This document shows positions 312-35,394 of a stretch of DNA of 35,394 nucleotides, piece by piece. Numbering within the stretch: the first letter of the stretch is position 1; each line of letters opens with the position of its first letter. Under the pieces are notes generated by a model, which was not told the DNA's origin, ran no database searches, and saw only the letters and a program-made list of their open reading frames with translations. The DNA is from a virus. Its lineage: Duplodnaviria; Heunggongvirae; Uroviricota; Caudoviricetes. The stretch lies in the IMG/VR virus record IMGVR_UViG_2711768013_000020; one strand, written 5' to 3'. The translations under genes were made by a program, and so were the position numbers.

Positions 312-332
312 NNNNNNNNNNNNNNNNNNNNN
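312..332. other. Assembly gap (21 N) spanning the J 3' end and lom 5' end
   Basis: Run of N in the sequence. Confidence 1.
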
Positions 333-3300
333 TTTTGGTCACAATCACCGTACAGTCGGTGATATTGCCTGCCCCCTGATTGCCTTTCTGGAAAATCTTA
401 AACTCCAGAGTGACGCTTCCCCTGCCACTCGGCATATCAATAACTGCACTGTAACTACCGGGAATGGCCCCTTTAGTTTCTCTGGATGCGATTAATACGC
501 CGTTTTTGCGAACTTCAAAACCATAACCCGTGTATCGCGTGCCTCCTGGGTTATTTCCGCTCCCCGGATCGTCATACGCTATACCGTTAAAAATAATGGG
601 CGGAATAATAATCTGGCGGTCAAAGTTATGATCATCGCTGATGGTGACTGTAACCGTACCGTTTGGTGTTTCCGTGTTACCCCACGTACCGACTTTTTTC
701 GGGAAGGCTTTTGATACAGCTTTAACGAAATCTCCTCTGACCTGGGTCGCCTCCAGCATGCCCTTAATCGTACAGTTCTGGTTAATCGTGACATTGTTGA
801 GCGTCCCTGAATTTGCATTCACATTACCGCTGATATCCGCATTTTTAGCGGTCAGCTTTCCGTCTGGTGTCAGGGAAAATGCCGGCGGATTTCCACCGCT
901 GGTAATGGTGGGAGCCGTCAGGCGTTTCAGGAACACGTCATTCATGAATATCTGGTTGCCCTGCGCCACAAACATCGGCGTTTCATTCCCGTTTGCCGGG
1001 TCAATAAACGCGATACGGTTAGCGGCAACCAGAAACTGGCTCAGTTTGCCTTCCTCCGTGTCCTCCATGCTGAGGCCAATACCCGCGACATAATGTTTGC
1101 CGTCTTTGGTCTGCTCAATTTTGACGCCCCACATGGCATTCCACTTATCGTTGGCGTCCTTCCACTCTTTCGAAAACTCCTCCAGTCTGCTGGCGTTATC
1201 CTCCGTCAGGTCGACTTTTTCCAGCAGCTCCTGGCCGAGATGGGATTCGGTTATCTGGCCTTTGAAAAAATCCAGGTAACCTTCCGCATCATCGCTCGCC
1301 CGACCGACAGCCTCCACGAATGCTGATTTGCCGACGGTGTTCACACTGCGGATATAAAAGTAATAATCATGGCCCGGCTTAATATTGATACTGGCGGCTA
1401 TCCAGTACAGCCCCGTGCCAAGGTAGCGGGCTGTGGTTTCAACCTGCCTGATATCCGCAATCCGTTTTTCCGAGAACCAGAACTCAAACTGTACCGTCGG
1501 GTCATAAACCGCAAGATGCGGCGTGGCGGTTATCTGAAAATAGCCCGGCGTCAGCTCAATCCGCGACGGCGCTGCCGGTGCGGCAATCCGGAACGATACC
1601 GACGCCGGATCGCCCTGCTGCCCCCACGCATTTACTGCCCGGACTGTCAGCCTGTAGTTCCCCAGAGCCAGTTGTGTGAAGCGGTAAGTGGTTTCCGTCG
1701 TCCGGGCCGTGCTGACCAGCCGCTCACGGCCGTCATCCGCTGCCACGGTCAGGCGAAGCAGGAAGCTCACGCCCTTCACCACCTTCGGCGTGTCCCAGCG
1801 GGCCAGCACCTGGTATTCCCCGCTGTCTGCGGTGACTTCTGCGGTCAGGTGCTGCACCGCTGGCGGCGTGACACCATTTACCGTGCCGCTCTGGTCGCCG
1901 TCAAAGTGCGCCCCGTTATCCACGATGGCCTCTTTTTCCGGTACATGCTGCACGGCAGTGATGGCATACGTGCCGTCGTCGTTCTCACGGATACTCACGC
2001 AGCGGAACAGGCGCTGGCGCAGCGTCGGCAGCTTCAGCCCCCATACGCTGTATTCAGCAACGCCGTCAGGAACACGGCTCACTTTCACCTTCACGCCGTC
2101 GGTGACGGACTGAACCTCCACGCTGACCGGACTCCCCTGCCCGTCAACCAGGCTTATCAGCGTGGTGCCGGAAGATGGCAGCGTGATTTCACGGTCGAGC
2201 GTCAGCGTCCGGGTCTGGCTGTTTACCGCCAGCACGCGCCCGCCGGTGCGGATACCGGCATAGTCATCATCGCAGATTTCAATGACATCGCCCGGTACAT
2301 GGCGAAGCCCTTCGGCACCCACGCTGAAGTCCACGGTCTGCGTTTCCAGCAGTTCTGTTTTAATCAGCCACAGCCCGGCGCGGTGTGCCTGCCCCCGGCT
2401 GGTACAGCCAAAAGCATCCATCTTCGTGACGTTACGACCGTAACGGGCAATGGCCTGCGTGTCCTCCACAAGCTCTGTCGCCGTCTCCCAGCCGTTATTC
2501 GGGTCAATCCAGTTCACCTCAACGGCATTATGGCGGTCCTTCAGGGCGCTGAAGCTGTAGCGGAACGGCGCGCCATCATCCGGCATCACCACATTACTGC
2601 GGTTATAGGTCCACACCTTATCTGATGGTCGGTCCTGCACGAACGTCAGCGTCTGCCCGTTCCATACCGGCATACAGCGCATCGCCGAGCAGAAATCACT
2701 GAGCACATCCCACGCCTTGCGCTGTGTGGTCAGGTACGCATTACAGGTGATGCGCGGCTCCGTGCCGCCAAAACCGTCCGGCACCGACTGATCGCAATGC
2801 TGGCCGATGACATACAGCGCCCATTTGTCCACATCCGCCGCACCAAGACGTTTCCCCATGCCGTAGCGCGGATGGGTCAGCATATCCCACAGACACCAGG
2901 CCATGTTGTTGCTGTATGCTGGCTTAAACGTTCCGTCCCAGATACCGCTGTATTGCCGCGTCTGCGGGTTATAGCTCGACGGCACCTGCAGAATGCGCCC
3001 GCGCAGATGATAATTACGGCTCACCTGCTGGCTGCCGAACTGCTCCGAATCCACCTGCACGCCGACCAGTGCCGTGTTCGGGTAGCACTGTTTCACATCG
3101 ATGATTTCGGTGTATGACGACCAGAGCGTTTTGTTCTGCAGCTGGTCTGTGGTGCTGTCTGGCGTCATCCTGCGCATCCGGATATTAAACGGGCGCGGCG
3201 GCAGGTTATCCACCACCACCGAGGCCAGATACTGCGAGGTGGTTTTGCCCTTAATGGTGATGTCTTTTTCCGTCACCCAGCCACCATTACGTTGTATCTG

Positions 3301-3717
3301 AACCAGCAGGCGGACTTCCGACGGATTCCTGTCCCCCTTTGAGGTGGTTTCCACCAGTGCCTGCACACCGAAGGTAAAGCGCAGACGGTCAATGTTTGCC
3401 GACGTGATGGTCCGGGTGATCGGCGTGTCGTATTTCACTTCCGTACCCAGTACCGTCTCGGAACCTGATGATTCAAATCCCTCCGGCGGTGTCTGTTCCT
3501 GCTCACCTGCCCGGAACACCACCGTGACACCAGAGATGTTGGTATTCCCCTCACTGTCCAGCACCGGTGTACTGTTCAGCAGCACGCTTTTTAATCCATC
3601 CACCGGACCTTCAACCGGCCCTTCGCTGATGGTATCGATCACACTCAGCAACTGCGTGGACTTCAGGTTGTCCTTTGCTTCGCGCGGGGTATGCCCCTTA
3701 CTGCTGCCTTTACCCAT
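333..3717 (-). CDS. J: Tail tip / host specificity protein J; last few C-terminal codons lost in the gap
   Basis: Minus-strand translation from ATG at 3717 begins [54 protein letters not shown], matching lambda J; open frame continues to the gap. Not in the ORF track only because the frame has no stop inside the window. Confidence 0.9.
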
Positions 3718-3777
3718 TCCTCACGCTCCATAAACGACAAAACCGCCCGCAGGCGGTTTCACATAAAACATTTTGCA

Positions 3778-5071: not shown

Positions 5072-5736
5072 TTACTGCGAAAGTTTGTTAATGGAAAGGA
5101 AGCCGCCAAAGTTGCCGACGTTATTGCGAAACTTACAGCCGCTCAGGCATTTGCTGCATTTATCCTTCGTGATATCGGACGTCGGCTGATCATATTCATC
5201 CGCGACCGCCGGACCGTGATAACCGCACTCATCGCCGCGATAGGTCCAGGTGCAGGTGTTGGCCAGCATGATGCGCCCCGGAAAAACAGCGCCATCCGTT
5301 TCCGTCGGCGTGGACAGTACAAANNNNNNNNNNNNNNNNNNNNNNNNNNNNNNNNNNNNNNNNNNNNNNNNNNNNNNNNNNNNNNNNNNNNNNNNNNNNN
5401 NNNNNNNNNNNNNNNNNNNNNNNNNNNNNNNNNNNNNNNNNNNNNNNNNNNNNNNNNNNNNNNNNNNNNNNNNNNNNNNNNNNNNNNNNNNNNNNNNNNN
5501 NNNNNNNNNNNNNNNNNNNNNNNNNNNNNNNNNNNNNNNNNNNNNNNNNNNNNNNNNNNNNNNNNNNNNNNNNGTCGCCCCTGCCAGGTGACCGGCTCAC
5601 CTTTTTCGTTCTGCTCATTACAGAAAAAATAACGTTCTCCACCGACCTCTGTCAGATCGATTTCCCAGAGCACCACCTGGGCTGACTGAGTGAGGCGTGT
5701 CGTCTCATGATGTGTTTCCTGTGGAATATCCTGCAT
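5072..5736 (-). CDS. L: Minor tail protein L, interrupted by a 250-N assembly gap (frame across the gap unknown)
   Basis: N-terminal part MQDIPQETHHETTRLTQSAQVVLWEIDLTEVGGERYFFCNEQNEKGEPVTWQGR (5575-5736) and C-terminal part ...CTWTYRGDECGYHGPAVADEYDQPTSDITKDKCSKCLSGCKFRNNVGNFGGFLSINKLSQ (5072-5269) both lambda L-like. Confidence 0.8.
5324..5573. other. Assembly gap (250 N) inside gene L
   Basis: Run of N. Confidence 1.
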
Positions 5737-20550: not shown

Positions 20551-20560
20551 NNNNNNNNNN
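20551..20560. other. Assembly gap (10 N) inside the holin gene
   Basis: Run of N. Confidence 1.
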
Positions 20561-22251: not shown

Positions 22252-22329
22252 TGCTATCACAGCTATATATTTACTTATTATGCCGTTACTAACATTTATC
22301 TTCGACATATAATCGAAAACAAGGTTTGC

Positions 22330-22755
22330 TTAAAACTCTGCTTTCATTTTATCCGGGAATTTTTTATTTGCAGCATAATAACTACCAAGTACATAAGCGT
22401 TCATTTGCTGCTCTACATCAACCCGACATGCCGCACTAGAACAAGCTCCACTGATAAGCCCAAAAGAACTCCCTTTAGCAGAGAGATCAGCTTTGATTTC
22501 CTCTACAGTGTTTTTCCCCATAGCAACTACACACCCTGTCACAATATATCTAGCTTTCACATCATCCATGCTAAGGATAGTAGTTTTCGCAATTTTGCTG
22601 TATCCATCATTTTTATAAACATCCATGGCAAACGCACGGCAATCTGTATAATACGGACTTGCTTTAACTTGCGAATACTCAGGTAATTTCATACCTGCAC
22701 AACCAACTAAACAAAAACCTATCGCTGCTATTAATACCTTTTTCATTACAGTCAT
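22330..22755 (-). CDS. Lipoprotein of unknown function (moron downstream of Q)
   Basis: MKKVLIAAIGFCLVGCAG signal peptide with lipobox; AT-rich coding sequence; flanked by terminators. Confidence 0.7.
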   Translation of the reverse strand: MTVMKKVLIAAIGFCLVGCAGMKLPEYSQVKASPYYTDCRAFAMDVYKNDGYSKIAKTTILSMDDVKARYIVTGCVVAMGKNTVEEIKADLSAKGSSFGLISGACSSAACRVDVEQQMNAYVLGSYYAANKKFPDKMKAEF

Positions 22756-22902
22756 AACCTAGAAGCATCATTGAAACTAATTTATTAAATAACCATCGAG
22801 TTTCTGGAATACAGACGTTAACCATCTCTCCAAAATCTAAAAGATAATAAGAAAAAATGTTTAACGCACCAATCCATTTCATAGTTTCATGAGACATCAG
22901 GC

Positions 22903-22931
22903 ACAAAAAACCCGCTCAGCGGCGGGTTTTT
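22903..22931 (-). terminator. Intrinsic terminator downstream of Q (tR'-like; copy 2 of the repeated element)
   Basis: AAAAAACCCGCTCAGCGGCGGGTTTTT: same stem as 22227-22251 with U-runs on both strands. Confidence 0.55.
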
Positions 22932-22974
22932 GACATTTACCAACGGTAGACATACAAGGCCCATCGTTGAGAAA

Positions 22975-23003
22975 ATCTTATCCATATTTTTTGAAAAATG
23001 CAA
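22975..23003 (-). promoter_or_regulatory. Candidate late promoter (PR'-like) between Q and the tR'-like terminator
   Basis: Minus strand TTGCAT - 17 nt - TAAGAT. Confidence 0.3.
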
Positions 23004-23034
23004 GTATCACGTCGACATCTTCGGCGAAAATTAT

Positions 23035-23787
23035 CTATCTTGTCACTTTTCTCAATTGCGATTCAGCATACGCTTCTTCCTGCCAGCACTTTGTAACCAG
23101 TTTATTAATAACGTCTGCATATCCTTTGTACCACTGATAATCCGTCAGGTCCGGTACCAGTTTCTGGACATGATGCCGCGCCAGTGTGGTTGGTAAACGG
23201 CTAAACCGGTTGCCATTGCAACGCCCACAAATCTTATAAACAGGCACACCATGAAGCCGGGTTCTTTTTTCATCCAGGACAATACCTTTACCCTTACACC
23301 CTCTGCACGCTGTGCTGACTTCTCCCTTACCATGGCAATGCTGACATAGTTCCTTCACCCACTCTTCCTTGATAACAGATTCCCCGCTTCTGGAGTGTTT
23401 CACCACTTCGCGCAATACATTATGAAATCCAGTACCAGCACAATGCTCACAGCGAGCCTTACTTGCCGCAGACCTGGAATAATCAGCAAAGGCAAAATTC
23501 ACAAGGTAAGGGATGATCTGTAACCGGGTTTCTTCACTCAATTTGTTCAATGTCGGGTTATCCAGTGCCATCGCGTAATTGAGCAGACCTTCAATCGCAA
23601 ATTGAGGATCCTGAACACCAACTTTTGCCAGGAATAAGGCAAACCCAAGCGGTGCTTTCGACTGCACCATCCCCTGCGCAGCCATCACATCCGTAATCGT
23701 TAAACCACCTGAGCCTGTCGCCGGTGCGTCATCGCTCAATTTTGGAGATTTTGGGGAGTAATATTTTGGTAAGGCTTCAAGGTTCAT
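23035..23787 (-). CDS. Q: Late-gene antiterminator Q
   Basis: From ATG 23787 MNLEALPKYYSPKSPKLSDD...; zinc-binding CxxC pairs (CEHCAGTG, CGRCNG), C-terminal ...LRKVTR; lambda Q-like. Confidence 0.85.
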   Translation of the reverse strand: MNLEALPKYYSPKSPKLSDDAPATGSGGLTITDVMAAQGMVQSKAPLGFALFLAKVGVQDPQFAIEGLLNYAMALDNPTLNKLSEETRLQIIPYLVNFAFADYSRSAASKARCEHCAGTGFHNVLREVVKHSRSGESVIKEEWVKELCQHCHGKGEVSTACRGCKGKGIVLDEKRTRLHGVPVYKICGRCNGNRFSRLPTTLARHHVQKLVPDLTDYQWYKGYADVINKLVTKCWQEEAYAESQLRKVTR

Positions 23788-30242: not shown

Positions 30243-30917
30243 ATGAAAACAGTCCATGACATCCGGCGGTCTAACGCCAGAAAACTGAGAGATGGTGTTG
30301 GCGGGAATTCTTCCTTTGCCACCATGATTGATCGCGAGCCAACCCAGACCAGCAGGTTTATGGGAGATGGTGCAACTAAAAATATCGGTGACAGCATGGC
30401 ACGGCACATCGAAAAATGTTTCGACCTGCCTGTCGGATGGCTTGATCAAGAACACCAGACAACGAACATCACAAAAAAACCTGACGTTTCAATCACTAAC
30501 AAACAAATAACGTTAGTCCCTGTCATATCATGGGTACAGGCCGGAGCATGGAAAGAAGTTGGCTATTCTGAGGTTGATTTGAGCACAGCAGAAACTTATC
30601 CCTGCCCTGTACCCTGTGGCGAAATGACTTATATCTTGCGGGTGATTGGTGATTCAATGATTGATGAGTACCGCCCGGGAGACATGATTTTTGTTGATCC
30701 TGAAGTCCCTGCCTGCCACGGTGACGACGTTATTGCATTGATGCACGATACAGGCGAAACCACCTTCAAGCGGTTGATAGAAGATGGAACACAGCGTTAT
30801 CTCAAAGCATTAAACCCAAACTGGCCTGAGCCTTACATTAAGATTAACGGTAATTGCTCTATAATTGGTACAGTGATTTTCTCAGGAAAACCAAGAAGAT
30901 ACATAATAAAGGCCTAA
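30243..30917 (+). CDS. cI: CI-type prophage repressor (HTH plus S24 LexA-like autopeptidase)
   Basis: 224 aa; candidate Ala-Gly cleavage site (WVQAGAW), serine motif VIGDSM and downstream lysine (ETTFKRL); no SD upstream. Confidence 0.85.
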   Translation: MKTVHDIRRSNARKLRDGVGGNSSFATMIDREPTQTSRFMGDGATKNIGDSMARHIEKCFDLPVGWLDQEHQTTNITKKPDVSITNKQITLVPVISWVQAGAWKEVGYSEVDLSTAETYPCPVPCGEMTYILRVIGDSMIDEYRPGDMIFVDPEVPACHGDDVIALMHDTGETTFKRLIEDGTQRYLKALNPNWPEPYIKINGNCSIIGTVIFSGKPRRYIIKA

Positions 30918-30930
30918 TCAATATTTATAA

Positions 30931-30951
30931 CCTGCTTCGGCAGGTTTTTTT
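30931..30951 (+). terminator. Intrinsic terminator after cI
   Basis: CCTGC-ttcg-GCAGG followed by TTTTTTT. Confidence 0.7.
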
Positions 30952-30955
30952 ATAC

Positions 30956-30984
30956 TTGACAATGTACCTTTGGGATACATAATG
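30956..30984 (+). promoter_or_regulatory. PL-like early-left promoter with overlapping operator-like dyad
   Basis: TTGACA (30956-30961) - 16 nt - CATAAT; spacer contains ATGTACCTTTGGGATACAT, related to the OR palindrome. Confidence 0.5.
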
Positions 30985-32031: not shown

Positions 32032-32856
32032 ATGTCTCAGAACTTAGACGCAACCGCAATTAATCAAATCCATGCCCTTATTTCTGCTCAGGGTGTTAAT
32101 GAAATTATCAGTAAGATTGGTGCCGATGCTGTGGCATTGCCTGAGAATTTCCGCATTCATGATCTGGAAAAATTAAATTTAAATCGTTTCCGTTTCCGTG
32201 GTGCGCTTTCCACTGCCAGCATCGATGACTTTACTCGTTATTCTAAAGATCTTGCAGATGAAGGCACCCGCTGCTTTATCGATGCTGATAATATGCGTGC
32301 CGTCAGTGTTCTTAACCTGGGTACTATTGATGAACCAGGTCACGCAGATAACACCGCCACTCTCAAACTGAAAAAGACAGCTCCGTTCTCTGCTCTGTTG
32401 TCTGTTAATGGCGAGCGTAACTCCCAGAAGTCACTGGCAGAATGGATTGAAGACTGGGCCGACTACCTTGTGGGCTTTGATGCTAATGGTGACGCCATTC
32501 AGGCAACCAAAGCGGCTGCGGCGATCCGTAAAATCACAATTGAAGCGAACCAGACCGCTGATTTTGAAGATAATGACTTCAGCGGCAAACGCTCCCTGAT
32601 GGAGTCTGTCGAAGCGAAGACCAAAGACATTATGCCAGTGGCATTTGAATTTAAATGCGTTCCGTTTGAAGGTCTGAAAGAACGTCCGTTTAAATTACGC
32701 CTCAGCATTATCACTGGCGATCGTCCTGTACTGGTTCTGCGCATTATTCAGCTGGAAGCGGTACAGGAAGAAATGGCTAACGAATTTCGTGATCTGCTTG
32801 TTGAGAAATTCAAAGACAGCAAAGTAGAAACCTTTATTGGTACTTTCACCGCCTGA
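32032..32856 (+). CDS. yfdQ: YfdQ-like (DUF2303-family) prophage protein (274 aa)
   Basis: ATG 32032 with RBS GAGGA; length and context as above; identity from memory, not alignment. Confidence 0.5.
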
Positions 32857-32868
32857 TTTCATTACTGC

Positions 32869-32890
32869 AAATGCCCCTGCGGGGGCATTT
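32869..32890 (+). terminator. Strong hairpin after the yfdQ-like gene (possible terminator; no clear U-run)
   Basis: AAATGCCCC-tgcg-GGGGCATTT, 9-bp perfect stem. Confidence 0.4.
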
Positions 32891-33032
32891 ACGGAAGCGA
32901 TAATTTTAACTATTGCCGCCCCTATAAAGAACCATTAAACAATAACGTGACGTAGCTATTGATAGTAAATGAAGCACTTGCAAAATAATTGCATTGCGTA
33001 TATATACACACATGTGTTGTATTACAGCGATA

Positions 33033-33827
33033 ATGGTAAAGCAAATGATTAACTCTGAAGCAATTGAGCAACTAATGTGGCTATGGTCCTTATTTGACAT
33101 TAAATTCTTATCTATTCTTGCCGCTGCCTTCACTATATATTTTGGCGTGCAAAAAATATCAAAAAAGGTGACAGTGTCGTATTCAGCAAATGCAAGTAGA
33201 ATATATGACATGCATATATCAACCATAATCCTGAATAATAAAAGAGATAATGCAATTGCTATATCTTCAATCAATATGGAGGTTGAAGGTAAAGGGATAC
33301 TACAAGTTATTAAATTTGACTCCCCTCTTCTTTTAAAGAACTATGATTCTTTAAAAGTTGAACCACCAAAATTTAGCAGCCTTTACAATAATGATGGCGT
33401 AGTTAAGTTAGATATTTCTGATAAGTTTCATTTTTATATAATCACGACATCTGGAGATGAAATTAAATGTATTTCTGAAAATAAATATGTAGCACCAAAC
33501 ATGGAAAACAAAATAGCTACAGACATAAGAAAATTTAATGGCATTGTCTTAACAAACAGAATGTCTTATATTTTTTTCTATGCAAATGACAACGGAGAGA
33601 AATACTGCATAATAGATGTTTCATTGTTCATAAATGGTGACAACCCATTTCATTTTAATTTTTTAAAAGAAGATGAATTAAGAGATTTTTCTAGCATCCT
33701 TATTAGTTACGGATATCACCAACAGTTTAAAAGTTATGCATTGTTTAAAATAGACAACCATCTTGCTCCTTCTTTGGTTTTAAATAAATCAATGATAGAA
33801 AATAATATTATTGAAATGAATAAGTAA
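33033..33827 (+). CDS. AT-rich membrane-anchored protein of unknown function (start ambiguous: 33012, 33033 or 33045)
   Basis: Predicted N-terminal transmembrane helix LMWLWSLFDIKFLSILAAAFTIYFGV then a roughly 230-aa domain; GC content far below the flanking prophage genes; no SD. Confidence 0.55.
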   Translation: MVKQMINSEAIEQLMWLWSLFDIKFLSILAAAFTIYFGVQKISKKVTVSYSANASRIYDMHISTIILNNKRDNAIAISSINMEVEGKGILQVIKFDSPLLLKNYDSLKVEPPKFSSLYNNDGVVKLDISDKFHFYIITTSGDEIKCISENKYVAPNMENKIATDIRKFNGIVLTNRMSYIFFYANDNGEKYCIIDVSLFINGDNPFHFNFLKEDELRDFSSILISYGYHQQFKSYALFKIDNHLAPSLVLNKSMIENNIIEMNK

Positions 33828-33863
33828 CTCACCGGGTGCAGCCGGTTATGATGGAGAAATGAT

Positions 33864-34145
33864 ATGAATACCTTGTTTTTACTGATGGCTGAATTCAATA
33901 CCCCAAACATTGAACTCTCAGCAGTTAGTCAAAAATACTTTGGTATGAGTCCAGCCACAGCAGAAGCAAAAGCAAACGCTTGTAAGTTGCCTGTACCTAC
34001 ATATCGCATCGGTACATCACAAAAAGCAAAACGTTGCATCAATATTCAGGATCTTGCGGAATACATAGACAAAAGACGAGAAGAAGGACGTATCGAGTGG
34101 GAACAGGTCAGAACAGGCAAACAGAAGGGCAAAGAACATCACTAA
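33864..34145 (+). CDS. PrtN-family (pyocin-activator-like) small DNA-binding protein
   Basis: 93 aa, RBS GGAGAAA, MNTLFLLMAEFNTPNIELSAVSQKYFGMSPATAEAKANACKLPVPTYRIGTSQKAKRCI. Confidence 0.65.
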   Translation: MNTLFLLMAEFNTPNIELSAVSQKYFGMSPATAEAKANACKLPVPTYRIGTSQKAKRCINIQDLAEYIDKRREEGRIEWEQVRTGKQKGKEHH

Positions 34146-34174
34146 AGAAAAAACCCGCCTAAAGGCGGGTTTTC
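34144..34174. terminator. Convergent terminator shared by the plus-strand early-left genes and the minus-strand Panacea operon
   Basis: AAAAACCCGCC-taaa-GGCGGGTTTT: 7-bp GC stem with A/T runs on both sides. Confidence 0.65.
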
Positions 34175-34192
34175 AAAAAGCACCAGCTATGA

Positions 34193-34366
34193 TCATGCTG
34201 CTTTGCGACGACGAAGCTTACCCTGCTGCTCTTTACCAGAGACAGTAGCGTGAGTGAACGCATTAGGAGCAGCCTTCATCAGAACTTCAACAGCAGCACC
34301 CATACCTGCGAATGCTTTCATTGTGTCGAACTTAACCTGTGGCTTGGTTGCTTTTTGATCTTCCAT
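34193..34366 (-). CDS. Hypothetical small basic protein (57 aa), last gene of the Panacea operon
   Basis: ATG 34366 with GGAG 8 nt upstream; MEDQKATKPQVKFDTMKAFAGMGAAVEVLMKAAPNAFTHATVSGKEQQGKLRRRKAA; not in the ORF track (under 60 aa). Confidence 0.35.
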   Translation of the reverse strand: MEDQKATKPQVKFDTMKAFAGMGAAVEVLMKAAPNAFTHATVSGKEQQGKLRRRKAA

Positions 34367-34405
34367 AGAAAACTCCAGAAGCTATACCGAAACAATTCCT
34401 GTTGT

Positions 34406-34825
34406 TTACTCATCATCAATAGATGATACGCAATATTTATTTTTAAATTTAAGGTTCTTTGGCGTAACTTCATCAGATATATCAAAACCGTCCAGAATTC
34501 TATTGAATGTAGCTTCTGGCATATCATCATGAACGGAAATCTCACCCGATCGCTGCTTTCTAACCATGTTATCCACTCGCCAAATTATAGCTTCAGCGTA
34601 AACAACATAACTTGGATGCTTGATAAAGCGATGATCACCAGAATTCAAGACGCAAGACGGATCGTGGGGGACACCATCCTTGATACTAGAAATATTAACA
34701 ACTAAAACACAATAACAATCGTTAACGGGGTAATAAACAGGATCATTACAAATCACATGAAGATGATTGCATGGCCCAGTTGGGGCAAGCACAGTTCCTT
34801 TCCTGTATGGCTGATAATCCGTCAT
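34406..34825 (-). CDS. Hypothetical protein (139 aa), candidate toxin/effector partner of the Panacea-domain protein
   Basis: Start overlaps the upstream stop (ATGA); no recognised family. Confidence 0.6.
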   Translation of the reverse strand: MTDYQPYRKGTVLAPTGPCNHLHVICNDPVYYPVNDCYCVLVVNISSIKDGVPHDPSCVLNSGDHRFIKHPSYVVYAEAIIWRVDNMVRKQRSGEISVHDDMPEATFNRILDGFDISDEVTPKNLKFKNKYCVSSIDDE

Positions 34826-35394
34826 GATAATTGCAAAGAAAATTCCTTAAGTTTCTGAGATTCTTCCATTTTGCCAATTATACGATTAGCCTCATCCTCG
34901 CTTTTACCCTCACTGATCAGCATTTCTTTCAGGTCTATAGGCTTACGAGAATTGCCAGGATTGTGCCACTCTGGACAAACGCTTTCTAAATGCGTCATGT
35001 TTGCGAGATCAAATCGGTTCATATGCCCATACAGAGAATAGATTTCATCTAAAATCCGGATATCTGCACGGCTCAACTCATCAAAGACCTCGTCTGCATC
35101 CATTTCCCTCGGATCTGAACGCAACAACACATCATGCCCGTTCGTCTCTATCAGGTTGTACCAGTAGTCACCAATACCTTCAGCCTTACCACGAATCAAG
35201 TTCAGCGTATTCGACATGACTGGACCAAATTTCATAGAGTAAAGGCTATCTTCGCCGATCATCCTGCCATGCTTCAAAATCGACTTGCGGTTAGACAGAT
35301 AGAGCAGCTTCATCAATTTCAGATATGCCATGCGCCCACCTCGCTTAAGAAGTAGGTATGCAGCCATTTGAGCTACTTTTTCTTCGCAAAACAT
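34822..35394 (-). CDS. Panacea-domain (DUF4065, SocA/GepA-like) protein, candidate antitoxin; start coincides with the window edge
   Basis: MAAYLLLKRGGRMAYLKLMKLLYLSNRKSILKHGRMIGEDSLYSMKFGPVMSN matches the Panacea N-terminal signature (LKLqKLLYyaq ... GPV). Confidence 0.7.
   Translation of the reverse strand: MFCEEKVAQMAAYLLLKRGGRMAYLKLMKLLYLSNRKSILKHGRMIGEDSLYSMKFGPVMSNTLNLIRGKAEGIGDYWYNLIETNGHDVLLRSDPREMDADEVFDELSRADIRILDEIYSLYGHMNRFDLANMTHLESVCPEWHNPGNSRKPIDLKEMLISEGKSEDEANRIIGKMEESQKLKEFSLQLS

What the first reader, a model, noticed from the sequence alone, without database searches (positions are those of the whole stretch)
32994..33827. AT-rich single-pass membrane protein inserted in the early-left operon
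The ORF is far more AT-rich than everything around it, lacks an SD, encodes an N-terminal transmembrane helix plus a roughly 230-aa domain without recognisable motifs, and is bracketed by hairpins (32869-32890 upstream, 34144-34174 downstream of the adjacent prtN-like gene). In lambdoid phages this neighbourhood is where superinfection-exclusion and abortive-infection genes (rexAB, sieB and the like) sit. Composition says it was acquired horizontally.
Basis: partly seen in the sequence, partly recalled or inferred. Interest (0 to 1): 0.65.

Follow-up and report, generated by a model that had tools for sequence, protein, structure and literature searches.

The report
AT-rich membrane-protein cargo gene in prophage
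A real, horizontally exchanged ~930-bp AT-rich cassette in an E. coli lambdoid prophage encodes a 260-aa membrane-anchored protein from an uncharacterised family found in the cargo slots of many kinds of mobile elements, which makes it a reasonable but untested candidate for a new single-gene anti-phage protein.

Summary
The gene is 33045-33827 (260 aa, ATG start), not 32994. At 29% GC it is the lowest-GC stretch of the window (mean 51%). It has one N-terminal hydrophobic helix and a beta-rich body with no Pfam, NCBIfam, PADLOC or PDB match.

It is a replacement, not a simple insertion. Relatives at the same dusA site, with the same yfdQ and excisionase, carry about 3.1 kb of ordinary early-left genes where this prophage has a ~930-bp cassette (32899-33831). 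Only 99 of 5,426 complete E. coli genomes carry it. The two hairpins belong to the backbone, not the cassette.

The family has about 221 50%-identity clusters in Gammaproteobacteria. It is always solitary and always 29-36% GC, even in 60%-GC Aeromonas. It sits in cargo slots of lambdoid, P2-like and filamentous prophages, P4-like satellites or islands, a conjugative element and small plasmids.

Charge distribution predicts N-out/C-in, so the globular part faces the cytoplasm. The best reading is a prophage-borne phage-exclusion or abortive-infection protein with the architecture of PdpSau/AbiP (confidence about 0.45). This rests on context only; no function was tested. It is a candidate of moderate interest, not a demonstrated system.

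The parts
30956..30983 (+). Promoter-like site TTGACA-16-CATAAT just after the terminator of the cI-like gene ymfK. Probably the early-left (PL-type) promoter that reads through yfdP, yfdQ, the cassette and xis.
   Evidence: 11 of 12 hexamer matches, and a terminator-like stem at 30929-30946. Its function is inferred.
32032..32856 (+). yfdQ (DUF2303), the conserved backbone gene that anchors the left side of the variable interval.
   Evidence: Pfam DUF2303 at 7.9e-93. RefSeq annotates it as YfdQ.
32869..32890 (.). GC-rich hairpin after yfdQ. It is part of the backbone, not of the cassette, and has no T-run on the + strand.
   Evidence: Fold dG -19.4 kcal/mol, z -3.4. The sequence is identical in K-12, W224N and H10407, which lack the gene.
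32899..33044 (+). AT-rich leader of the cassette (33% GC). It carries weak promoter-like hexamers at 32959-32986 and 33005-33034 and is partly alignable with the Citrobacter homologue's leader. The left recombination junction lies at ~32899.
   Evidence: Promoter activity was not shown.
33045..33827 (+). CDS of the 260-aa protein (WP_047654657, phrog_14996), 29.9 kDa, 29% GC.
33078..33149 (+). Codons for residues 12-35, the single hydrophobic (transmembrane) helix. It ends in the family-wide Y32-F33-x-x-Q36-K37 juxtamembrane motif.
   Evidence: Hydropathy and flank charges. Conservation. Modelled as a helix over residues 4-38.
33168..33467 (+). Residues 42-141, an Ig-like beta-sandwich domain. 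It carries the conserved motifs N65-K-R-D68-N, P94-L-x-L97-K98 and C142.
33501..33824 (+). Residues 153-260, a second alpha/beta domain with no structural match. Allelic amino-acid changes concentrate at 148-162 and 192-227.
33832..33863 (+). Right junction. Backbone homology resumes 4 nt after the stop codon, and this stretch includes the ribosome-binding region of xis. There is no terminator here.
33864..34145 (+). PrtN-family/phrog_1300 excisionase gene, the right-hand backbone anchor.
   Evidence: Pfam PF11112 at 3e-23. phrog_1300 'excisionase' at 1e-39.
34149..34174 (.). Bidirectional intrinsic-terminator-like hairpin between xis (+) and a convergent 57-aa ORF (-).

Best explanation
The region 32899-33831 is a horizontally exchanged single-gene cargo cassette. 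It has replaced the usual yfdR-to-exonuclease block of the early-left operon in a dusA-integrated, KplE1/ST64B-type lambdoid prophage.

Its product is a 260-aa inner-membrane protein. A single N-terminal helix anchors it, with the short acidic N-tail outside. Two beta-rich domains (an Ig-like sandwich and a novel alpha/beta domain) hang on the cytoplasmic face.

The most likely role is prophage-borne protection of the lysogen against other phages. In this model the cytoplasmic domains recognise an incoming phage component at or near the membrane, and the membrane helix with its conserved juxtamembrane face acts as the effector by self-association and loss of membrane integrity. This is abortive infection, as with S. 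aureus PdpSau and lactococcal AbiP.

Shown here: the gene, its boundaries, its mobility, its conservation, its solitary state, its MGE cargo contexts, and the fold class.
Inferred: topology, expression in the lysogen, the anti-phage role, and the membrane-effector step.
For: - Real and constrained gene: 221 cluster representatives at E<=1e-3, nearly all 235-275 aa with the same architecture. Divergent E. coli alleles are intact, with dN/dS 0.24-0.55.
- Mobile cargo: sharp junctions, and relatives with the same flanks carry 3.1 kb of other genes. Present in 99 of 5,426 genomes. GC is 29-36% in hosts ranging from 40 to 60% GC. One >=90%-identity cluster spans Vibrio, Providencia and Marinomonas.
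- Cargo slots of at least six MGE types:
  - immediately upstream of three unrelated xis or xis-int modules;
  - the nin region of Klebsiella and Raoultella prophages;
  - the gpA-to-portal slot of an Aeromonas P2-like prophage, which is the tin/old defence hotspot of PMC9122126;
  - directly after zot in filamentous prophages of two Vibrio species, a variable locus reported as enriched for defence in PMC11630473;
  - a T4SS/relaxase element;
  - small Acinetobacter plasmids, in one case near MazEF.
- Known defence or TA genes lie nearby in several contexts: PanA-type TA here; a dCTP deaminase defence gene (4e-142) and PDC-M36A; RnlAB; CbtA/CbeA.
- Solitary: the upstream neighbours are unrelated to one another.
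- Topology: the C-flank averages 2.5 K+R against 0.6 on the N-flank, and 111 of 127 members follow this rule. Cysteine counts show no even-number bias.
- Protein-level evolution is about 10-fold faster than in the flanking genes at similar dS: 0.33-0.36 against 0.03-0.04.
- The architecture matches PdpSau (278 aa, N-terminal membrane helix, cytoplasmic C-domain, depolarisation on infection; PMC10127798).
Against: - No functional test exists, and no homology to any known defence, exclusion or Abi protein.
- No paper mentions the accessions or the PHROG, and they are absent from the DefensePredictor supplements.
- In this window the gene lies in an operon expected to be repressed in the lysogen. 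Its own promoter is only a weak consensus match.
- It has no terminator of its own, unlike a classic moron.
- In other E. coli prophages the yfdQ-xis interval holds ordinary early genes, not known defence systems.
- The hydrophobic helix is only moderately hydrophobic (KD 1.68), so true membrane insertion is predicted, not shown.
- N-anchored Ig-like sandwiches are more often extracytoplasmic.
- A raised dN/dS could simply reflect weak constraint.
- The gene is pseudogenised in JSMCR1 and IS1-interrupted in E89.
Confidence: 0.45

Rival explanations
1. Injection-blocking superinfection exclusion. [quoted passage not shown]
For: It is an inner-membrane anchor on a prophage-borne single gene with no enzymatic motifs. 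[quoted passage not shown] An Ig-like domain is a typical protein-binding module.
Against: There is no similarity to SieA, SieB or Imm families in Pfam, PHROGs or PADLOC. Known injection blockers are specific to one phage type, whereas this family rides on lambdoid, P2-like and filamentous phages, satellites and plasmids. The predicted cytoplasmic location of the bulk of the protein fits interception of periplasmic ejection proteins less well.
Confidence: 0.2
2. A non-defence accessory function for the carrier element or host. Examples: a membrane-associated factor used during the element's own cycle (modulating host division, envelope or energy state), entry exclusion against related conjugative elements, or a lysogenic-conversion trait unrelated to phage.
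For: Here it sits in the lytic early-left operon with no terminator before xis, so it would be co-expressed at induction. It replaces genes that serve phage DNA metabolism (yfdR, exonuclease). It also occurs in the replication/nin region of other prophages and in a T4SS element. Most cargo genes have no known function.
Against: A function tied to one life cycle is hard to reconcile with carriage by six mechanistically different element types and by non-mobilisable small plasmids. It has no signal peptide or lipobox, unlike the usual envelope conversion factors (Bor, Lom, Cor). In Aeromonas it is transcribed divergently from its neighbours, so it must have its own promoter.
Confidence: 0.3
3. 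Non-functional AT-rich spacer with a chance or decaying ORF.
For: Low GC inflates the chance of long ORFs. One strain has frameshifts and one an IS1 insertion. The Shine-Dalgarno sequence is weak.
Against: Hundreds of homologues share length, architecture and conserved motifs down to ~20% identity. dN/dS is below 1. The AF2 model is confident, with pLDDT 86 and pTM 0.70.
Confidence: 0.03

Closest known systems
PdpSau (S. aureus Sa2-type prophages) and lactococcal AbiP: single-gene, membrane-anchored abortive-infection proteins (PMC10127798)
   Same: A single prophage accessory gene that replaces other cargo at a fixed slot. Size is ~260-280 aa, with an N-terminal membrane helix followed by a cytoplasmic C-terminal domain and no enzymatic motif.
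   Different: No sequence similarity. PdpSau and AbiP carry an OB-fold-like, positively charged nucleic-acid-binding domain and are predicted N-in. This protein has an Ig-like sandwich plus a novel alpha/beta domain (pI ~6 in E. coli) and is predicted N-out. Activity is demonstrated for PdpSau and untested here.
P22 SieA / T4 Imm / HK97 gp15: inner-membrane injection blockers (PMC10883804)
   Same: Prophage- or phage-encoded inner-membrane proteins that are sufficient alone, highly divergent in sequence, and have no catalytic domain.
   Different: No homology. Those proteins are smaller or polytopic and act on one phage group. This family has one helix and a ~220-aa globular part, and it is spread over many element types.
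Lambda RexAB and P22/lambda SieB
   Same: Cargo of lambdoid prophages thought to protect the lysogen. Membrane involvement (RexB, SieB).
   Different: Rex is a two-gene system co-transcribed with cI, and RexB has four TM helices. This is one gene with one helix, ~2 kb from the repressor gene, behind a terminator and next to xis. There is no Pfam or PADLOC match.
Lactococcal Sie2009-type proteins (from my own knowledge, not checked in a paper here)
   Same: An N-terminal membrane anchor plus one globular part, encoded near the integration/immunity end of temperate phages.
   Different: Sie2009 proteins are ~160-170 aa with the globular part outside the cell. They occur in Gram-positive hosts, and no similarity was tested or known.
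Classic phage 'moron' (promoter + gene + terminator with deviant GC)
   Same: Deviant composition, presence/absence polymorphism between otherwise near-identical prophages, and sharp intergenic junctions.
   Different: It has no terminator of its own, and its promoter is only a weak consensus match. It replaces 3.1 kb rather than adding DNA.
Archaeal type IV pilins/archaellins (best structural hits)
   Different: The scores are below significance, with TM ~0.25. There is no class III signal peptide or prepilin cleavage motif, there is a second C-terminal domain, and the predicted orientation is opposite. This is a shape analogy only.

Membership tests
Lambda RexAB | Two adjacent genes, rexA and rexB, with sequence families RexA and RexB | tested here: not met
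   A single gene with no conserved partner. No Pfam or PADLOC hit.
Lambda RexAB | Co-transcribed with the repressor gene from the maintenance promoter | tested here: not met
   A terminator-like stem at 30929-30946 and ~2.1 kb (yfdP, yfdQ) separate it from ymfK.
SieA / SieB superinfection exclusion proteins | Sequence membership in the SieA or SieB families | tested here: not met
   There is no Pfam or PADLOC match. PHROGs gives only phrog_14996, of unknown function.
SieA / SieB superinfection exclusion proteins | Blocks DNA injection, or aborts infection of related phages | not testable with these tools
   This needs phage challenge and DNA-entry assays.
Any catalogued defence system (PADLOC-DB v2.0.0) | HMM match to a component of a known or candidate system | tested here: not met
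   The window protein has 0 hits. Among 32 family members there is 1 chance-level hit at E 0.016. Newer DefenseFinder models were not available.
PdpSau/AbiP-type membrane-anchored Abi | Single gene with an N-terminal membrane helix and a cytoplasmic C-terminal domain | tested here: met
   One hydrophobic segment at residues 12-35. The positive-inside rule places the C-terminal part in the cytoplasm in 111 of 127 members. This is a prediction only.
PdpSau/AbiP-type membrane-anchored Abi | OB-fold-like nucleic-acid-binding C-domain, or sequence or structure similarity to AbiP | tested here: not met
PdpSau/AbiP-type membrane-anchored Abi | Membrane depolarisation and cell death on infection | not testable with these tools
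   This is an experimental question.
Phage moron | Composition distinct from neighbours, and present/absent between related phages | tested here: met
   29% against 45-51% GC. Present in 99 of 5,426 genomes with conserved flanks.
Phage moron | Own promoter and own terminator | tested here: inconclusive
   Only 9/12 promoter-like matches in the leader, and the number of such sites in the region is no higher than in shuffles. There is no terminator between the stop codon and xis. The divergent orientation in Aeromonas implies that homologues have their own promoter.
CBASS/Pycsar-type TM-beta effector (e.g. Cap15) | Encoded next to a cyclase, with an HMM match | tested here: not met
   No cyclase in any of the ~15 contexts examined. 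No PADLOC hit.
Type IV pilin / archaellin | Class III signal peptide: a short basic leader, a G/A cleavage site and a hydrophobic helix | tested here: not met
   The N-terminus is acidic (MINSEAIEQ...), with no cleavage motif. Structural scores are sub-threshold.

The most novel reading that the evidence does not exclude
This is the founding member, for annotation purposes, of a previously unrecognised single-gene anti-phage family of Gammaproteobacteria. The protein is a persistently AT-rich, ~250-aa, N-out/C-in membrane-tethered protein with a novel two-domain cytoplasmic sensor. It is disseminated as a solitary cassette among lambdoid, P2-like and filamentous prophages, P4-like satellites or islands, conjugative elements and small plasmids, and it acts by a membrane-level abortive or exclusion mechanism.
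Probability: 0.45. Interest if true: 0.65.

Novelty: new variant of a known kind. Interest (0 to 1): 0.5.

Why it matters
If the cloned gene protects against phages, it would add a compact (783-bp) single-gene system with a fold combination not seen in known defence proteins. It is carried by an unusually wide range of mobile elements, including filamentous prophages and small plasmids. That would give a simple handle on how a membrane-tethered, non-enzymatic protein senses infection.

It would also mark the position immediately upstream of xis as a cargo slot worth mining. Even without that, the case shows cleanly that cassette replacement, not insertion, reshapes the early-left operon of the very common yfdQ-type E. 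coli prophages.

If the gene has no anti-phage phenotype, it remains an ordinary uncharacterised prophage cargo gene.

Tried and rejected
1. Two-gene system. Upstream genes of 477 aa (Citrobacter), 427 aa (Acinetobacter) and 473 aa (Vibrio) looked like a possible conserved partner. Pairwise BLASTP shows no relationship, so this was rejected.
2. Known-family assignment. Pfam, NCBIfam, PADLOC, PHROGs and PDB sequence searches, with the single protein and with profiles, gave nothing beyond phrog_14996 of unknown function.
4. Transposon-like mobility. There are no flanking direct or inverted repeats.
5. Regulatory RNA in the leader or flanks. No Rfam match reaches the gathering score.
6. Hairpins as cassette boundaries. 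Rejected by alignment to relatives.
7. A second very low-GC patch at 5300-5600 turned out to be a run of N.
8. Plus-strand ORFs at 641-3733 are spurious; that stretch is gpJ on the minus strand.
9. The search for related loci with the broad alignments failed because no stretch was conserved enough. With A1, the genome collection gave one locus, in Buttiauxella.
10. Literature searches for the accessions and the PHROG id, and the DefensePredictor supplements, found nothing.
11. Periplasmic disulfide signature. Cysteine parity is flat, 72 odd against 76 even.

Full report
**What is in the sequence**

An open frame runs from 32994 to 33827 on the + strand. RefSeq annotation of identical DNA (WP_047654657), the PHROG profile phrog_14996 (E 2.9e-178, profile positions 1-260 aligned to residues 18-277) and every homologue start the protein at ATG 33045 with M-I/L-N. 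The gene is therefore 33045-33827 and encodes 260 aa (29.9 kDa). The Shine-Dalgarno sequence before it is weak, with GG at -10/-9.

The CDS is 29.0% GC (GC3 26%). yfdQ is 45.5% GC, the excisionase gene 41% and the whole window 50.8%. It is the lowest 783-nt stretch of the window once runs of N are excluded (mean 0.512, sd 0.059, next lowest 0.365).

**Context**

The window is a lambdoid prophage of the KplE1/ST64B type, lying next to a dusA fragment. The local order on the + strand is:
- cI-like ymfK (30243-30917);
- a terminator-like stem, then a strong promoter-like site at 30956-30983;
- yfdP, then yfdQ (DUF2303);
- the AT-rich gene;
- a PrtN-family/phrog_1300 excisionase gene;
- a bidirectional terminator.

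On the - strand follow a 57-aa ORF, a 139-aa ORF and a Panacea-domain gene. A paper on lambdoid phages describes yfdP-yfdQ-yfdR as a common early-left-operon cluster (PMC12315714).

**Boundaries: replacement, not insertion**

Megablast against 5,426 complete E. coli genomes finds the flanks in about half of them, but the gene in only 99. In those it is always single-copy and always in this slot.

Homology to genomes without the gene ends at ~32899, after the yfdQ hairpin, and resumes at 33832, four bases after the stop codon. Prophages at the same chromosomal site with the same excisionase gene (W224N, H10407, O157 SS17) hold about 3.1 kb in that interval: yfdR 5'-deoxynucleotidase, a yfdS-like gene, ead/Ea22-like, DUF551 and a 3'-5' exonuclease. 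K-12 has yfdR-yfdS-yfdT.

So a ~930-bp cassette (a 146-bp AT-rich leader plus the CDS) has replaced a block of ordinary early genes.

The left hairpin is backbone sequence shared by all yfdQ prophages and has no T-run. The right hairpin is the terminator after xis. Neither delimits the cassette. No repeats flank the cassette. No terminator lies between it and xis, so read-through to xis at induction remains possible.

**Is it a real gene?**

Yes.
- A word-indexed search of 5.8 billion proteins found 11 clusters at 40-92% identity in Escherichia/Shigella, Citrobacter and Klebsiella.
- An exhaustive profile search of 1.84 billion representatives found 221 at E<=1e-3 (141 at <=1e-10). Nearly all are 235-275 aa and align end to end.
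- A second indexed search added Vibrio, Photobacterium, Aeromonas, Pseudoalteromonas and Raoultella. tblastn found Acinetobacter plasmid copies.
- Family-wide conserved positions include Y32, F33, Q36 and K37 at the end of the helix, N65 and D68 (the N-K/R-K/R-D-K/N motif), P94, L97, K98, C142, Y179, G223, Y231 and K248.
- Three divergent E. coli alleles are intact, with dN/dS 0.24-0.55.
- One strain has two frameshifts and one an IS1 insertion.

Against a 93%-identical allele in otherwise near-identical prophages, dN/dS is 0.33-0.36. For yfdQ it is 0.026 and for xis 0.04, at similar dS. The gene is under purifying selection but changes about ten times faster at the protein level than its neighbours. 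The changes concentrate at residues 148-162 and 192-227.

**Protein anatomy**

There is one hydrophobic segment, at residues ~12-35 (Kyte-Doolittle 1.68), and no other.

Over 127 full-length family members, the 15 residues before the helix average 0.58 K+R and 1.5 D+E. The 15 residues after it average 2.54 K+R and 0.43 D+E. In 111 of 127 members the C-side is the more positive. By the positive-inside rule (established knowledge), the short acidic N-tail is outside and the ~220-aa body is cytoplasmic. There is no signal peptide. Cysteine counts show no even-number bias (72 odd, 76 even), which fits a cytoplasmic domain. This topology is a prediction.

AlphaFold2 with a 32-sequence alignment gives pLDDT 86.1 and pTM 0.70. 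The model shows:
- a helix at residues 4-38;
- a nine-strand sandwich at 42-141;
- a disordered linker at 144-152;
- a second alpha/beta domain at 156-259.

**Where the family lives**

Every context examined is a mobile element or sits next to one, and the gene is always solitary.
1. E. coli: between yfdQ and xis, as described above.
2. Citrobacter: immediately upstream of a 68-aa gene plus a P4-type integrase, in at least three different islands. One carries a P4-like primase and two carry CbtA/CbeA.
3. IMG/VR prophages: immediately upstream of an Exc excisionase plus lambda-type integrase, and of a 68-aa gene plus P4-type integrase.
4. Klebsiella, Raoultella and another viral contig: between the replication genes and the nin region.
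5. Aeromonas veronii: in a P2-like prophage between gpA/umuDC and ogr-portal, transcribed divergently from umuD. This is the gpA-gpQ slot that holds tin/old and many defence systems in E. coli P2-like phages (PMC9122126).
6. Vibrio tasmaniensis and V. cyclitrophicus: directly after zot of filamentous prophages. This is a variable locus reported as enriched for defence genes (PMC11630473). In V. tasmaniensis a dCTP deaminase defence gene (PADLOC 4e-142) and PDC-M36A lie within 6 kb.
7. V. parahaemolyticus: cargo of a T4SS/relaxase element. Proteins at least 90% identical occur in Providencia and Marinomonas.
8. A Vibrio contig with RnlAB nearby.
9. Two small Acinetobacter plasmids, one with MazEF close by.

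Neighbouring genes are not conserved, and three similarly sized upstream genes are unrelated to one another.

The gene is 29-36% GC in all of these hosts, including Aeromonas, where the flanks are 60% GC.

**Interpretation**

The following are shown:
- a conserved, mobile, solitary, persistently AT-rich gene;
- a product with one N-terminal helix and two beta-rich domains;
- placement in the cargo slots of at least six kinds of mobile element;
- exchange here by cassette replacement.

The function is inferred. A trait useful to lambdoid, P2-like and filamentous phages, satellites, conjugative elements and small plasmids alike is most simply protection of the shared host against lytic phages or competing elements. 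The slots concerned are known or reported defence hotspots, and defence or TA genes are frequent neighbours.

The closest experimentally characterised architecture is the PdpSau/AbiP type. These are single prophage genes of ~280 aa with an N-terminal membrane helix and a cytoplasmic C-domain. They cause depolarisation and abortive infection (PMC10127798).

I therefore favour a membrane-tethered sensor-effector acting by abortive infection (0.45). The alternatives are an injection block of the SieA type (0.2; PMC10883804), a non-defence accessory role (0.3) and a non-functional ORF (0.03).

Weak points:
- there is no functional data;
- there is no homology to any defence protein;
- in this prophage the gene lies in an operon expected to be repressed in the lysogen, and its leader shows only weak promoter-like matches, no more frequent than in shuffled sequence;
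- the yfdQ-xis interval of other E. coli prophages holds ordinary early genes;
- the helix is only moderately hydrophobic.

**Comparison with known systems**

It is not a member of RexAB, SieA/SieB, any PADLOC system, Cap15-type effectors or type IV pilins. The defining features tested were not met (see the membership table). It meets the architectural definition of a PdpSau/AbiP-like protein but not the domain definition. It meets the composition and polymorphism criteria of a moron but lacks its own terminator.

**Verdict**

The feature is real. It is an uncharacterised family and a plausible new single-gene defence candidate. Interest is moderate (0.5) because finding unknown cargo genes in prophages is expected. 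The unusually broad carrier range, the constant low GC and the novel fold combination make it a good, cheap target for a phage-challenge test.

Noticed in passing
window 34406-34825 (-) and 34822-35394 (-): A Panacea (SocA-like antitoxin) domain gene (Pfam 1.8e-18) overlaps by 4 nt a downstream 139-aa gene (phrog_19071, no Pfam). This looks like a PanA-type toxin-antitoxin pair at the prophage end next to the dusA fragment. RefSeq starts the 139-aa gene later, giving 128 aa.
   Followed up: partly
L015 5506-6540 (ETEC H10407) and L014 5731-6264 (O157 SS17), equivalent to window ~34175-34400: The short interval after the xis terminator also varies between relatives. H10407 has a 1,035-bp 'competence protein CoiA' (nuclease-like) gene inserted there. 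O157 SS17 has a 534-bp hypothetical gene in place of the Panacea pair. The right end of this prophage family behaves as a cargo hotspot.
   Followed up: no
window 312-332, 5324-5573, 20551-20560: These are runs of N (masked or unresolved sequence). The 250-nt run interrupts the tail gene L and gives a false 7% GC signal in composition profiles.
   Followed up: yes
window ~22255-23037: This is the second-lowest GC stretch of the window (36.5%). It overlaps a 141-aa hypothetical ORF (22330-22755, -) between the Q-type antiterminator and a DNA methyltransferase gene, which is the classic late-operon moron position. It was not examined.
   Followed up: no
L005-L008 4015-5448 (Citrobacter islands): A 477-aa gene with no Pfam or PADLOC hit always lies ~550 bp upstream of the Citrobacter homologue, in three different island backbones. 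It is unrelated to the upstream genes in Vibrio and Acinetobacter, and may be an independent cargo or defence candidate.
   Followed up: partly
L017 10441-14478 (Vibrio tasmaniensis): Beside the filamentous prophage that carries the homologue lie a dCTP-deaminase defence gene (PADLOC 4e-142) and a PDC-M36A candidate, so the prophage sits in or next to a defence island.
   Followed up: partly
protein cluster of P0050: Proteins at least 90% identical to the V. parahaemolyticus homologue occur in V. vulnificus, V. diabolicus, V. owensii, Providencia and Marinomonas. This indicates very recent transfer between orders, probably on the T4SS element seen in L020.
   Followed up: no
L029 (strain JSMCR1) and hit H91 (strain E89): In two of the 99 E. 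coli carriers the gene is inactivated, in one by two frameshifts and in the other by an IS1 insertion.
   Followed up: partly
window 33045-33827 compared with L042/L044 6001-6783: Between two prophage lineages with similar dS (~0.09-0.12), dN/dS of the AT-rich gene is 0.33-0.36, against 0.026 for yfdQ. The amino-acid changes cluster at residues 148-162 and 192-227. Counts are small (about 20 nonsynonymous and 13 synonymous changes).
   Followed up: partly
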